The notes below the pieces were generated by a model, which made no database searches, had not been told where the DNA came from, and saw only the letters and a program-made list of their open reading frames with translations. Shown here piece after piece: positions 1 to 29,238 of a stretch of DNA of 64,000 bases. The DNA is taken from NCBI RefSeq assembly GCF_009914755.1, contig NC_060947.1; one strand, 5' to 3'. A program made the position numbers and the translations under genes. Source of the stretch: the human T2T-CHM13v2.0 reference genome, Homo sapiens. Each line of letters begins with the position of its first letter. Within the stretch, counting starts at the first letter, position 1.

Positions 1-843
1 TGTTTTCTTCTTTATTAGTCTGGCTAATGGTCTATTTTGTTAATCTTTTCAAAAAACCAGATCCTGGGTTCATTGATTTTTTGAAGGGTTTTTCTTGTCT
101 CCATCTCCTTCAGTTCTGCTCTGATCTTAGTTGTATCTTGTCTTCTGCTAGCTTTTGAATTTGTTTGTTCTGGCTTCTCTAGTTCTTTTAATTGTGATGC
201 TAGGGTTTCAATTTTAGATCTTTTATGCTTTCTCCTGTGGGCACTTAGTGCTATAAATTTCCCAGTAAACACTGTTTTAGCTGTGTCCCAGAGATTCTGA
301 TACAGTATGTGTTTGTTCTCATTGGTTTAAAAGAAGTGATTTATTTTTGCCTTATTTTCATTATTTACCCAGTAGTCATTCAGGAGCAGGTTGTTCAATA
401 TCCATGTAGTTTTGCTGTTTTGAATGAGTTTCTTAAACCTAAATTCTAATTTGATTGCACTGCAGTCTGAGAGACTGTTTGTTATGATTTCTGTTCTTTT
501 GATTTTGCTGAGGAGTGTTTTACCTCCGATTATGTGGTCAGTTTTAGAATAAGTGCGATGTGGTGCTGAGAATGCATATTTTGTTGATTTGGGGTGGAGA
601 GTTCTGTAGATGTCTACTAGTTCTGCTTGGTCCAGAGCTGAGTTCAAGTCCTGAATATCCTTGTTTATTTTCTGTCTCGTTGATCTAGTATTGACTAGTG
701 GGGTGTTAAAGTCTCCCATTATTATTGTGTGGGAGTCTAAGTCTCTTTGTAGGCCTCTAAGAACTTGCTTTATGAATCTGTGTGCTCCTGTATTGGGTGC
801 ATATATATTTAGGATAGTTAGCTCTTCTTGTTGCATTGATCTC
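1..843 (-). mobile_element. LINE-1 ORF2 fragment (endonuclease region), L1PA-type, degenerate
   Basis: ORFs 327..836 ([30 protein letters not shown]) and 24..272 ([22 protein letters not shown]) are L1 ORF2p motifs broken by stops and frameshifts. Confidence 0.93.
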
Positions 844-26906: not shown

Positions 26907-27316
26907 GATTCTTTTAAGAAATATCACTTACAAACTTATTTTCTTTATGTAAAAGATGTTGCCATTTTTGTGATATAGAAAATATTGATAAGAAAAAAAT
27001 CAAGTCAGTTTAACAGCTATGCTTTTTCATTATTAGTTTCTAATATCTATTCTCATGTGTATTGTTAGTATAATTGTAATTAAAACAGTTCCGCAGGATG
27101 CAGAGTTCTGAGATAGAGGCATGCAGAGTTAGTGAAAAAAAAAAAAGCAGCTCAAAGTCATCAGGTTCAGTCTATCATCTAAGAGGCAGAGTCGTTGTAC
27201 AGGTAGCCTTAGTACATAGCAAGATGTTCAGTAGAAGATTCAGGGAGCAGCAAATGCTGATGACAGCTGAGGTAACAGAAGACAGGTTGCCAGGAACAGT
27301 CACTAGGACACAGGAT

Positions 27317-27829
27317 CTACCCAGAAATTATTTCATCACGATTTCTTCTATTCCACCTGTGCCTGAAGCAATTGTAGTGACAATAACGTGATAGAAAGGA
27401 CACAGTGCGGGTACTCCATTCTATGTTTGGGTCATGTGTCTCAAGCCAATGGATTCCAATAATCAGAGGGTATCGTGGTGCATGAATAATGTCAAACTGG
27501 AGCTCTTCAACATGGTTTCCAATTTGAACTTGGACAGGTGATGTTTCCTTAGTTATGGGTCCATTAATAAGTGGATGGCCGTCGACAGTTTCCAGCATCA
27601 GAGGGAAGATATTACTGCGGATGGGCAGCTTCTCTCGAAGAACCACAGTATGATCAATGCTGTTTCTGTAGGAGCCTGAATCTACCATTGCTTGCTCAAA
27701 GAATTATCTTCTTCCCAGTTGGATTTCAACAGTAAGCCATAGTGTATGAGACATGGATATTGGAAGAGAGGGGGACGCATATTTGTAGATTGGCCCACGT
27801 GGGGTCCCCCTTACTGGCAGGCCTGGATG
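27317..27829 (-). pseudogene. RTL3: RTL3 pol-like ORF2 (-1 frame): PEG10-like retropepsin domain, interrupted by one in-frame TAA at 27704-27706
   Basis: The -1 frame reads HPGLPVRGTPRGP...VEIQLGRR*FFEQAMVDSGSYRNSIDH...ETVDGHPLINGPI...PLIIGIHWLETHDPNIEWSTRTVSF. It has a catalytic DSG and a second hydrophobic-hydrophobic-Gly motif, and is colinear with the PEG10 protease as recalled. Confidence 0.88.
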
Positions 27830-27835
27830 TTTCCC
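27769..27835 (-). promoter_or_regulatory. -1 programmed ribosomal frameshift signal: G_GGA_AAC (27835-27829) plus predicted H-type pseudoknot
   Basis: Heptamer correctly phased in the gag frame, spacer ATCCA, stem 1 GGCCTGC/GTGGGCC, stem 2 AGGGGGAC/GTCCCCCT. Confidence 0.85.
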
Positions 27836-29238
27836 GCCTGCAGGGCCTGATGAGGCTTGACAGGGCAATCTCTGGCAAAATGACCAGGATAACCACAGTA
27901 GAGGCATAAGCGGCCTTTGTGCCAACGGACCCATTCAGCTTCACTGATGTGTGGGCAGTTGATTGCAGCCTGCATAGGTTGGTTTTCAGCTGGTGGACTC
28001 TCGGGTCCATCTCCCTCTGCAGAGGAACTTTTCCCTAATGGATTGGGATCAGGCTTCTCTTCCAGGCTGATGCACTGAGTGATGAGATCAGATAGGTTGG
28101 TGGCTGGGCTTGTGTGAGACAGTTCATCTTGTATAGAACTGGCAAGACCTTCTTGAAATTGGATCCAGAGAGTGCTTTCATCCCAGTTCAGCTCTTGAGC
28201 AATGAGGTGGAAGTGGGTTGCTACATGACCCTCCCCTTGGCAGAGTTGATGGATGCACTGGTTGGCATCTTTCATGTTTTCTGGATTATCAAAAGTATCC
28301 TGGAGCACAGGTATGAAACTTTCACATTGCTCCAGTAAGGGGCTTTGGATATCCAGTAAGAGCTGGAACCACCATCCTGCCCTACCTGAGAAGCAATTGC
28401 CAACAAAGCTCACCAGGGCTGCTTCAGTGGGATACAGGTGCCCTCTGACTCTCATGTAACTATACAGCTGAACCAGGAACTCAGGAAGCTTCTGGGAATC
28501 TCCACTGAAGGTTAAAGTGTATTGCAGGGGGAAATCTGTAGCCTCTAACCCAATAGGGGCCTGTGGAAACTCTGAAGCTGCTGATGTCTCCACAACTATT
28601 AGACCCTCCAGGGACTCCTGGGCTGCTGAGAGTTCTAGGAATTCCTGGGCATTTGAAGGCTCCAGAGGCTCCTGGGGAGGTGGAAGCTCAAGGAACTCTA
28701 GCTGTGCTGCAGTTTCCTGGTATTCTGGTGCCTCCTGGGGCTTCTCAATATTTGGGGGATCCTGGGGTTCTGAATTCTTGGGCTCTTGGGCTATTGTGGC
28801 ATCCTGGGTGTTTGCAGGCCCCTGGCCCTCCAAGACTGTTGGGATCTCATGGGCCATTGGAGGTTTCTGGGACTCCCGGGTTGCTGGAGGCGCCAGGGAC
28901 TCTGGGGCTGCTGGGGCCTCCTGGAGTTCCCAGGCTGCTGGGGGTTCCCAGGGTAGAAGATCCTGTGGCTCTGGTGGCTTCTGGGGTTCCTTGAACTCTG
29001 GGGTCTTTTGGGCCTCCCAGGCTGCTGGGGGATTCATGTGCTCTGGGAGCTTCTGGGGCTCCTTGGCCTCTGAGGACTTTCGGAGTAGATCATACTCCTT
29101 GGCTGCTTGGGACTTCTGAAGCTCTGGGATCTGGGCCTGGAGAGCAGCATTTTCTTCCATCAGCCACTGCACTTGAGCCTGCCGAATTTCATTCTCCAAT
29201 TTCAGAACAATATAGGAGGCTGCTAAGTCCTCCACCAT
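27811..29238 (-). CDS. RTL3: Retrotransposon Gag-like protein 3 (ZCCHC5/MART3/SIRH9), 475 aa, domesticated Ty3/gypsy gag
   Basis: Intact intronless ORF with strong Kozak (AAGATGG). N-terminal helix (MVEDLAASYIVLKLENEIRQAQVQWLMEENAALQAQ), capsid-like domain (FSGDSQKLPEFL...AQELNWDE...QEGL) and CCHC knuckle CLYCGYPGHFARDC (27865-27906). Sequence recognised as ZCCHC5/RTL3. Confidence 0.96.
   Translation of the reverse strand: MVEDLAASYIVLKLENEIRQAQVQWLMEENAALQAQIPELQKSQAAKEYDLLRKSSEAKEPQKLPEHMNPPAAWEAQKTPEFKEPQKPPEPQDLLPWEPPAAWELQEAPAAPESLAPPATRESQKPPMAHEIPTVLEGQGPANTQDATIAQEPKNSEPQDPPNIEKPQEAPEYQETAAQLEFLELPPPQEPLEPSNAQEFLELSAAQESLEGLIVVETSAASEFPQAPIGLEATDFPLQYTLTFSGDSQKLPEFLVQLYSYMRVRGHLYPTEAALVSFVGNCFSGRAGWWFQLLLDIQSPLLEQCESFIPVLQDTFDNPENMKDANQCIHQLCQGEGHVATHFHLIAQELNWDESTLWIQFQEGLASSIQDELSHTSPATNLSDLITQCISLEEKPDPNPLGKSSSAEGDGPESPPAENQPMQAAINCPHISEAEWVRWHKGRLCLYCGYPGHFARDCPVKPHQALQAGNIQACQ

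What the first reader, a model, noticed from the sequence alone, without database searches (positions are those of the whole stretch)
27317..27829. Hidden Gag-protease fusion frame disabled by a single TAA
Seen: the listed ORFs 27704..27934 and 27317..27688 share one frame, the -1 frame of gag. They are separated only by TAA (27704-27706) and five sense codons: ...VEIQLGRR*FFEQAMVDSGSYRNSIDH.... The 170-codon frame has no other stop or frameshift. It retains DSG, ETVDG, PLIIG and WLETHDPNIEWSTR, closely matching the PEG10 protease as I recall it (FVRAMIDSGA...WLSTHDPNITWSTR). Frameshifting here would give 470+41 = 511 aa and stop 8 codons before the catalytic Asp. With a sense codon it would give a 640-aa Gag-PR. 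Inference: RTL3 was a second PEG10-like self-processing capsid system, and the protease was lost recently in this lineage. The TAA-TTC context is not a known readthrough motif. The ATG at 27688 has good Kozak context (GCAATGG) but would omit the first beta-strand.
Basis: partly seen in the sequence, partly recalled or inferred. Interest (0 to 1): 0.86.

Follow-up and report, generated by a model that had tools for sequence, protein, structure and literature searches.

The report
Broken protease relic behind human RTL3
The human RTL3 gene still carries, behind its capsid-like coding part, the remains of a retrovirus-type protease that other mammals join to it by ribosomal frameshifting, but in humans one stop codon cuts it off, and this was already published.

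Summary
On the minus strand the -1 frame of RTL3 gag is open from the slippery site G GGA AAC (27835-27829) to 27320. Its only interruption is TAA at 27704-27706. It encodes a PEG10-like retropepsin domain (41% identity to human PEG10 ORF2, E 3e-43; Pfam RVP_2 just above cut-off; model matches Ddi1 and retroviral proteases, Z up to 12.6).

The finding is not new. Henriques et al. 2024 (PMC11011659) describe exactly this human CA/PR non-overlap and the frameshift fusion in mouse and other mammals. Brandt 2005, Atkins 2016 and PMC11299033 also cover it.

Three things are added here:
- The break is a single in-frame nonsense codon. Five of five relatives that cover that column carry glutamine, and an intact relative aligns with no indels.
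- The stop lies inside the protease fold, in the turn of the first hairpin. The downstream ORF or its ATG therefore cannot encode a complete retropepsin.
- The heptamer and a PEG10-like pseudoknot candidate persist in human, so a 511-aa frameshift isoform remains possible.

"Lost recently" is not shown. Ten of the 13 differences from an intact relative are on the human side, which fits relaxed constraint. Best reading: a decaying relic. Interest is low.

The parts
27811..29238 (-). RTL3 gag-like CDS (475 aa plus TAA stop at 27811-27813): capsid-like domain and CCHC zinc knuckle
   Evidence: ORF list and translation. Pfam hits: DUF4939 50.1 bits, Ty3_capsid 33.8 bits, zf-CCHC 24.6 bits, all above their cut-offs.
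27829..27835 (-). Slippery heptamer G GGA AAC, in the gag frame, 5 codons before the gag stop
   Evidence: It is the only GGGAAAC in exon 2, and its first G is the third base of a gag codon. It lies in the same 10-nt string GGCGGGAAAC as the PEG10 site.
27769..27823 (-). Candidate H-type pseudoknot starting 5 nt after the heptamer. Stem 1 pairs 27823-27817 with 27798-27792 (7 bp). Stem 2 pairs 27811-27804 with 27776-27769 (8 bp).
   Evidence: My own helix scan gave summed helix energy -33.7 kcal/mol, and 0 of 300 dinucleotide shuffles did as well. The same architecture at the same offset was found in PEG10, also 0 of 300. It is computational only. An ordinary nested fold of the 111 nt was not remarkable (z -1.0), and Rfam gave no match.
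27707..27829 (-). 41 codons of the -1 frame between the slip site and the stop: a linker plus the first beta-strand of the protease fold (LWLTVEI)
   Evidence: Translation. The model has a strand at residues 50-56 with block pLDDT 96. The segment aligns with PEG10 ORF2.
27704..27706 (-). TAA, the single in-frame stop that separates the frameshift frame from the rest of the protease
   Evidence: Five of five relatives that cover this column in frame carry Gln there (P0152, P0153, P0154, P0003, P0103). PEG10 has Thr. In the model it lies in the turn between strands 50-56 and 63-68.
27320..27703 (-). 128 open codons holding the rest of the retropepsin-like domain and a short basic tail. The TAG stop follows at 27317-27319.
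   Evidence: Pfam RVP_2 21.4 bits against cut-off 20.3. Identity is 45% to the PEG10 locus and 34% to the RTL1 locus in the same genome.
27674..27682 (-). Codons of the catalytic motif Asp-Ser-Gly (D69 S70 G71 of P0001)
   Evidence: Among the other 73 rows of alignment A3, 70 have D, 66 have S and 70 have G at these columns.
27686..27688 (-). ATG two codons before the catalytic Asp, the only possible start for a separate protease product (123 aa)
   Evidence: The context is CAAGCAATGG. There are 25 ATGs upstream of it in exon 2, three of them between the gag stop and this ATG.
27380..27751 (-). Extent of the retropepsin fold in the read-through model (about residues 46-169 of P0001). It straddles the stop.
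   Evidence: VIA-align ranges: Ddi1 protease domains Z 11.9-12.6 over model 42/46..166/170. HIV-1 protease chain 1..99 aligns to model 36..157 at Z 8.4-8.9.

Best explanation
This is the decaying remnant of the protease half of an ancestral PEG10-like gene.

In the ancestor, and still in mouse and many other mammals according to the literature, ribosomes translating RTL3 gag slip back one base at G GGA AAC, helped by a downstream pseudoknot. They then read on into a retropepsin domain and make a Gag-protease fusion.

In the human copy, one nonsense codon (TAA at 27704-27706, a glutamine column in relatives) ends that frame 41 codons after the slip site. It falls inside the first hairpin of the protease fold, 8 codons before the catalytic Asp.

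The human gene therefore makes the 475-aa Gag. If slipping still occurs, it also makes a 511-aa Gag with a 41-residue tail. It makes no protease. The 128 open codons behind the stop lie in the 3' UTR as untranslated sequence under relaxed constraint.

Shown here: the frames, the single stop, the homology, the fold, and the position of the stop in the fold.

Inferred: that the break arose as a nonsense substitution, that the remnant is not translated, and that it is evolving neutrally.
For: - The only stops in the 206-codon -1 frame are the TAA and the terminal TAG.
- Homology to PEG10 ORF2 runs across the stop: 70 of 169 identical, E 3e-43.
- An intact relative is collinear with the human frame: 132 of 145 identical, 0 gaps, Gln at the stop column.
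- Five of five relatives covering that column in frame carry Gln.
- In the AlphaFold model of the read-through (X at the stop; mean pLDDT 82.7), strands 50-56 and 63-68 flank X61 and D69 follows.
- Structural alignments begin at model residue 36-46, upstream of the stop (Ddi1 Z up to 12.6; HIV-1 protease 1..99 to model 36..157). The downstream ORF therefore lacks 15-25 residues of the fold. A product starting at the ATG (M67) would start 2 residues before the Asp.
- 25 ATGs precede that ATG in exon 2.
- Ten of the 13 differences from the intact relative are on the human side. One of them is I143, where 69 of 73 family members have Leu.
- Staying open over 128 codons is not unlikely under neutrality: P 0.24-0.15 at 3-4% divergence, using my own assumed indel rate.
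- Literature passages read: PMC11011659, PMC11299033, PMC5009743.
Against: - The remnant is well kept. It has no indel and no second stop, and 14 of 15 near-invariant family positions are retained, including DSG. That would also fit a recent break or some remaining constraint.
- The ATG has a strong context.
- Henriques et al. write that the most likely explanation for human and other simians is independent CA and PR proteins, although their figure legend also allows functional loss.
- I had no DNA of relatives, so there is no dN/dS and no date.
- Only one human genome was read.
- No expression, ribosome-profiling or proteomic data for human RTL3 were seen.
Confidence: 0.8

Rival explanations
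1. The protease ORF is kept as a separate gene product. A protein starting at the ATG at 27688 (123 aa) is made independently of Gag and acts as a protease or protease-like subunit.
For: - Henriques et al. 2024 favour independent CA and PR proteins in human and other simians (passages).
- The ORF is open for 128 codons without indels.
- DSG and 14 of 15 near-invariant positions are kept.
- The ATG context is CAAGCAATGG.
Against: - The ATG lies 2 residues before the catalytic Asp. The product would lack the part matching HIV-1 protease residues 1 to about 22. By established retropepsin structure that part includes the N-terminal dimer-interface strand and the first hairpin.
- It sits about 1.55 kb into exon 2, behind 25 ATGs, and the RefSeq table supplied with the finding lists only one RTL3 transcript and no other sense-strand transcript.
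- Human-side replacements have accumulated.
- Openness is expected by chance at plausible divergences.
Confidence: 0.07
2. A full Gag-protease is still made at a low level. Ribosomes that have frameshifted then read through the TAA.
For: - The slippery site and a pseudoknot candidate are intact.
- The frame behind the stop is open and collinear with an intact relative.
Against: - It needs two rare events in series.
- No readthrough-stimulating element was looked for beyond Rfam, which found nothing.
Confidence: 0.03
3. The stop is a variant of this one assembly or is polymorphic in people, so some humans carry the open 640-codon fusion frame.
For: Only T2T-CHM13 was read here. Henriques et al. 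also describe using a complete (telomere-to-telomere) human assembly, so their human observation may rest on the same genome.
Against: - Nine further human-side replacements lie in the same 145 codons.
- Other simians are reported to have lost one or both domains.
- PMC11299033 speaks of loss in primates.
Confidence: 0.05

Closest known systems
PEG10 (RF1/RF2), human chr7, read here as L002
   Same: - Same heptamer in the same frame position, inside an identical 10-nt string.
- A pseudoknot candidate with the same offset and layout.
- The -1 frame encodes a retropepsin domain with DSG: 41% identity over 169 aa.
- A similar marginal Pfam RVP_2 score: 21.8 against 21.4 bits.
   Different: The PEG10 -1 frame is open for 402 codons through the protease and beyond. 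Human RTL3 stops after 41 codons, and its protease frame ends 128 codons after the stop.
Rtl3/Zcchc5 of mouse and other mammals (literature) and the intact relative P0152 / Sousa chinensis protein P0002
   Same: They are orthologous. P0152 is 91% identical over 145 aa with no gaps. The dolphin protein is identical to P0152 over 107 aa.
   Different: These keep a sense codon at the human stop column. The mouse is reported to have overlapping ORFs, a conserved heptamer and ribosome footprints in the 3' UTR (PMC11011659 and PMC11299033, passages).
RTL1/PEG11, human chr14 (L003)
   Same: A Sushi-class protease relic, 34% identical to the RTL3 ORF, E 6.7e-17.
   Different: It lies in one long open frame of 1377 codons. 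By the literature passage it contains the protease together with RT and RNase H remnants. That passage mentions no frameshift for RTL1, and I did not check that here.
Ddi1/DDI2 and retroviral proteases (solved structures)
   Same: The fold is the same. Ddi1 protease domains give Z 11.9-12.6, and XMRV, M-PMV and HIV-1 proteases give Z 8.4-10.6. Foldseek gives E 1.2e-6.
   Different: Sequence identity is only 9-19%, and a sequence search of the PDB found no relative. Those proteins are complete active or active-like domains. The human RTL3 domain is interrupted.
PNMA3/PNMA5 frameshift genes
   Same: They use the same GGGAAAC heptamer in retroelement-derived gag genes (PMC11299033 passage).
   Different: Their -1 frames encode no recognisable pol domain (PMC5009743 and PMC11011659 passages).

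Membership tests
Retropepsin-like aspartic protease domain (Pfam RVP_2, PF08284) | Profile score at or above the curated cut-off | tested here: met
   The 128-aa ORF scores 21.4 bits against cut-off 20.3. This is marginal but on a par with PEG10 ORF2 (21.8) and the intact relative P0152 (23.2). The other protease profiles score below their cut-offs.
Retropepsin-like aspartic protease domain (Pfam RVP_2, PF08284) | Catalytic Asp-Ser/Thr-Gly motif | tested here: met
   D69-S70-G71 at 27682-27674. These columns are near-invariant in the 74-row alignment.
Retropepsin-like aspartic protease domain (Pfam RVP_2, PF08284) | Retropepsin fold | tested here: met
   Tested on the read-through model with X at the stop. 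Ddi1 protease domains give Z 11.9-12.6 with 98-114 residues aligned. Retroviral proteases give Z 8.4-10.6.
Retropepsin-like aspartic protease domain (Pfam RVP_2, PF08284) | One uninterrupted reading frame for the whole domain | tested here: not met
   The TAA at X61 lies between model strands 50-56 and 63-68, and the fold starts at about residue 36-46.
Retropepsin-like aspartic protease domain (Pfam RVP_2, PF08284) | Homodimer with one Asp from each chain; proteolytic activity | not tested
   No complex job was sent, because a pass would mostly reflect likeness to solved dimers. Activity needs a bench assay.
PEG10-type -1 programmed frameshift Gag-protease gene | X XXY YYZ heptamer in the gag frame near the gag stop | tested here: met
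   G GGA AAC at 27835-27829, with its first base the third base of a gag codon, 5 codons before the stop.
PEG10-type -1 programmed frameshift Gag-protease gene | Stimulatory RNA structure 5-8 nt downstream | tested here: inconclusive
   A candidate pseudoknot starts 5 nt downstream. 0 of 300 shuffles did as well, and the layout matches the PEG10 candidate. Against this, the nested fold has z -1.0, Rfam has no family match, and there is no probing or covariation data.
PEG10-type -1 programmed frameshift Gag-protease gene | -1 frame open from the slip site through the protease | tested here: not met
   The human frame stops after 41 codons. It is open across this stretch in relative P0103, and in mouse according to PMC11011659.
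PEG10-type -1 programmed frameshift Gag-protease gene | Measured frameshifting | not testable with these tools
   PMC5009743 states that ZCCHC5 frameshifting was 'experimentally demonstrated (unpublished)'. The species is not given.
SIRH/RTL Gag-like proteins | Ty3-type capsid domain and CCHC zinc knuckle | tested here: met
   DUF4939 50.1 bits, Ty3_capsid 33.8 bits, zf-CCHC 24.6 bits, all above their cut-offs.

The most novel reading that the evidence does not exclude
Human RTL3 mRNA still frameshifts at its intact heptamer and PEG10-like pseudoknot. Human cells would then make a second, unannotated 511-aa RTL3 isoform. Its 41-residue tail would end with the first strand of the lost protease. 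The frameshift signal would have outlived the protease and might tune Gag output or assembly.
Probability: 0.4. Interest if true: 0.35.

Novelty: already known. Interest (0 to 1): 0.2.

Why it matters
RTL3 is one of the few vertebrate genes with a retrovirus-type frameshift, and its function is unknown. A 2023 review lists no protein-expression or knock-out data for it (PMC10604271 table).

It matters for annotation, and for any use of human RTL3 as a capsid-forming protein, that the human gene is Gag-only. It also matters that its protease ORF cannot fold into a complete retropepsin on its own.

This sharpens a published either/or (separate protease protein versus loss) towards loss. It also points to a cheap test: whether the surviving frameshift signal still works.

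Tried and rejected
- A sequence search of the PDB with the read-through found only one chance-level hit (E 0.62). The fold search was needed.
- An ordinary nested RNA fold of 27850-27740 was not more stable than shuffles: z -1.0, with 31 of 200 shuffles as good.
- Rfam gave 0 matches at E up to 1 over 27300-28000.
- A relative-rate count with PEG10 as outgroup was uninformative: 2 against 0, p 0.5. Polarising by other RTL3 relatives was used instead. This is weaker because their relationships are unknown.
- The supplement of PMC11011659 gave no occurrence of RTL3 or ZCCHC5 in the readable part. Its figures PDF and xls tables could not be read. Fig. 3D, which shows which primates lost what, was therefore not seen and may bear on the dating.
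- DNA of relatives could not be fetched, because no metagenome scan is allowed and the genome collection is prokaryotic. So there is no dN/dS and no check of the ancestral codon.
- Two frameshift surveys of human mRNAs do not mention RTL3 or ZCCHC5 in their main text: 10.1101/2021.04.23.441185 and 10.1101/469692.
- The full-text search 'RTL3' plus 'pseudoknot' found only PMC11299033.
- A tandem-repeat scan of the Pro-rich part of gag found nothing of note.
- No complex prediction was sent and no second fold was run.

Full report
**What is in the sequence**

RTL3 lies on the minus strand. Its gag-like CDS runs 29238..27814 and ends with TAA at 27813-27811, giving 475 aa.

The frame one base back is open from 27934 to 27707. 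It carries TAA at 27706-27704 and is open again from 27703 to 27320, ending with TAG at 27319-27317. Among these 206 codons those are the only two stops.

- 470 + 41 = 511 aa for a frameshift product.
- 640 aa if the stop were a sense codon.
- 170 codons from the slip site.
- The stop lies 8 codons before the catalytic Asp.

The motifs DSG, ETVDG, PLIIG and WLETHDPNIEWSTR are present. The other two frames also have stops between gag and the protease part. This agrees with the published statement that the intervening region has stops in all three frames.

**It is a real protease homologue, on both sides of the stop**

The 128-aa ORF found three places in the window's own genome (3 matches at E <= 0.001 among 10 candidates scored):
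- itself;
- the PEG10 locus on contig 7 (45% identity, E 2.4e-32);
- the RTL1 locus on contig 14 (34% identity, E 6.7e-17).

The read-through with X at the stop (P0001) aligns with PEG10 ORF2 over 169 residues (70 identical, E 3e-43). That alignment runs through the stop, with X opposite a PEG10 Thr.

Pfam RVP_2 scores 21.4 bits against a cut-off of 20.3. This is marginal, but PEG10's own protease scores 21.8 and an intact RTL3 relative scores 23.2. The other aspartic-protease profiles fall below their cut-offs.

A phmmer pass over 1.84 billion representatives found 2784 proteins at E <= 0.001.

**The frameshift signal**

The heptamer G GGA AAC (27835-27829) is the only GGGAAAC in exon 2. It is in the X XXY YYZ register of gag, 5 codons before the gag stop. 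PEG10 has the same heptamer in the same register inside an identical 10-nt string.

A helix scan of my own looked for a two-stem pseudoknot starting 4-9 nt after the heptamer. In both genes it found a candidate starting exactly 5 nt downstream:
- RTL3: 7 bp + 8 bp, -33.7 kcal/mol, 0 of 300 dinucleotide shuffles as good.
- PEG10: 5 bp + 8 bp, -31.3 kcal/mol, 0 of 300 shuffles as good.

This is computational only. A nested fold of the region is unremarkable (z -1.0) and Rfam has no matching family. That PEG10 has an H-type pseudoknot is stated in PMC13622457 (passage). I did not see the original study (Manktelow 2005).

**Relatives**

A search of 5.8 billion proteins gave 8 hits at E <= 1e-10 among 26 candidates. 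The representative search gave several more fragments.

P0152 (145 aa, a cluster of 38 members) is intact. It is 132/145 identical to the human frame with no gap, and it carries Gln where human has TAA. A protein that its source names as from Sousa chinensis (P0002) is identical to P0152 over 107 residues.

All five relatives that cover the stop column in frame carry Gln (P0152, P0153, P0154, P0003, P0103). Two more cover it in another frame, and three do not reach it. The simplest account is a single-base nonsense substitution in a Gln codon. This is an inference, because I had no DNA of relatives.

Several relatives are themselves decayed:
- DSC or DPG in place of DSG (P0103, P0154).
- Frameshifted tails (P0003, P0153, P0016, P0155, P0156).

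This fits the reported pseudogenisation in several clades.

**Where the stop sits in the fold**

An AlphaFold model was made of the read-through from a 74-row alignment (mean pLDDT 82.7, pTM 0.70). It has strand 50-56, a turn containing X61, strand 63-68, and then D69.

Foldseek puts Ddi1 protease domains and HIV-1 protease on top (E 1.2e-6 and below). VIA-align gives:
- Ddi1 domains at Z 11.9-12.6 over model residues 42/46 to 166/170;
- HIV-1 protease chain 1..99 against model 36..157 at Z 8.4-8.9.

So 15-25 residues of the fold lie upstream of the stop.

The ORF behind the stop lacks the first strand. A product from the ATG at 27688 (M67) would begin two residues before the catalytic Asp. 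By established retropepsin structure, the missing part includes the N-terminal strand of the dimer interface and the first hairpin.

That ATG has a good context (CAAGCAATGG), but 25 ATGs precede it in exon 2.

**Is the remnant under constraint?**

Points that fit relaxed constraint:
- Of the 13 columns where human differs from P0152, the human state is the minority among the other relatives at 10. P0152's state is the minority at 2, and 1 column is uninformative.
- Six replacements and the stop are seen in no other sampled relative.
- One replacement hits a near-invariant position: I143, where 69 of 73 family rows have Leu.

Points that could fit recency or some remaining constraint:
- 14 of 15 near-invariant positions are kept.
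- There is no indel.

Openness by itself says little. About 3.7% of substitutions in this ORF would create a stop. With an assumed indel-to-substitution ratio of 0.10, the ORF stays open with P 0.75, 0.49, 0.24, 0.15 and 0.06 at neutral divergences of 0.6, 1.5, 3, 4 and 6%. The 13 replacements amount to 0.039 per non-synonymous site, and the 7 human-only ones to 0.021.

Without synonymous data these numbers cannot separate old relaxed evolution from a recent break. They give no support to the word "recently".

**What is already in print**

- Henriques et al. 2024 (PMC11011659; abstract and passages read) report differential use of an ancient frameshift in RTL3. The ORFs overlap in mouse and many species. 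In human a -1 frameshift would not suffice, because the stop-free regions do not overlap. PR dN/dS is 0.11 against 0.67 for the CA ORF. Loss has occurred in simians, carnivores and bovids. They credit Brandt et al. 2005a,b, which I did not see, with the first suggestion.
- PMC11299033 (passages) reports the conserved heptamer in six species and mouse ribosome footprints in the 3' UTR. It says the mechanism is lost in primates. It also gives primate dN/dS 1.03 for RTL3 gag.
- PMC5009743 (passage) says ZCCHC5 frameshifting was predicted and "experimentally demonstrated (unpublished)".
- PMC5644247 and PMC11402058 (passages) list it among frameshifting genes.
- PMC10604271 and PMC12839241 (tables) give no protein or knock-out data for RTL3.

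**Verdict**

The core interpretation, a former PEG10-like Gag-protease gene, is supported but already published. "Recent" and "self-processing" are untested.

The modest additions here are:
- The human break is one nonsense codon in an otherwise collinear frame.
- It lies inside the protease fold. This argues against the published alternative of an independent protease protein.
- The slip site and a PEG10-like pseudoknot candidate are intact in human, so a 511-aa isoform is a testable possibility. My full-text searches found no paper that pairs RTL3 with a pseudoknot beyond PMC11299033.

Noticed in passing
proteins P0003, P0153, P0016; compare window 27320-27400 minus strand: Three RTL3 relatives end in the same alternative-frame tail (…VTT.AS.TGGIED.MMK). 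They leave the protease frame at different points: after GIH in P0153 and P0016, and after EWS in P0003. This suggests independent frameshifts into the same frame in different lineages.
   Followed up: no
protein P0103; human counterpart 27829-27840 minus strand: One relative has the -1 frame open from upstream of the slip site into the protease. It reads SRK where human reads GGK, so its heptamer appears altered. It also has DSC instead of DSG. This looks like a different route of decay from the human one.
   Followed up: partly
window 28472-29119, plus strand: A 215-codon stop-free frame lies antisense to the Pro/Gln/Glu-rich N-terminal half of RTL3 gag. It is probably a by-product of the biased codon content of that stretch. 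No tandem repeat of note was found there.
   Followed up: partly
window 28540-29090, minus strand (gag residues about 50-230): The N-terminal half of RTL3 Gag has no Pfam domain above its cut-off. It is rich in P, Q and E with recurring PQ/EPQK-like strings. PMC11299033 reports primate dN/dS 1.03 and positively selected sites for RTL3.
   Followed up: no
L002 1378-1429 (PEG10 locus of the same genome): My scan found only a 5-bp outer stem 1 for PEG10. By eye, an inner CGCUG/CAGCG helix separated by a 3-nt bulge would lengthen it. The published PEG10 pseudoknot was not checked against this.
   Followed up: no
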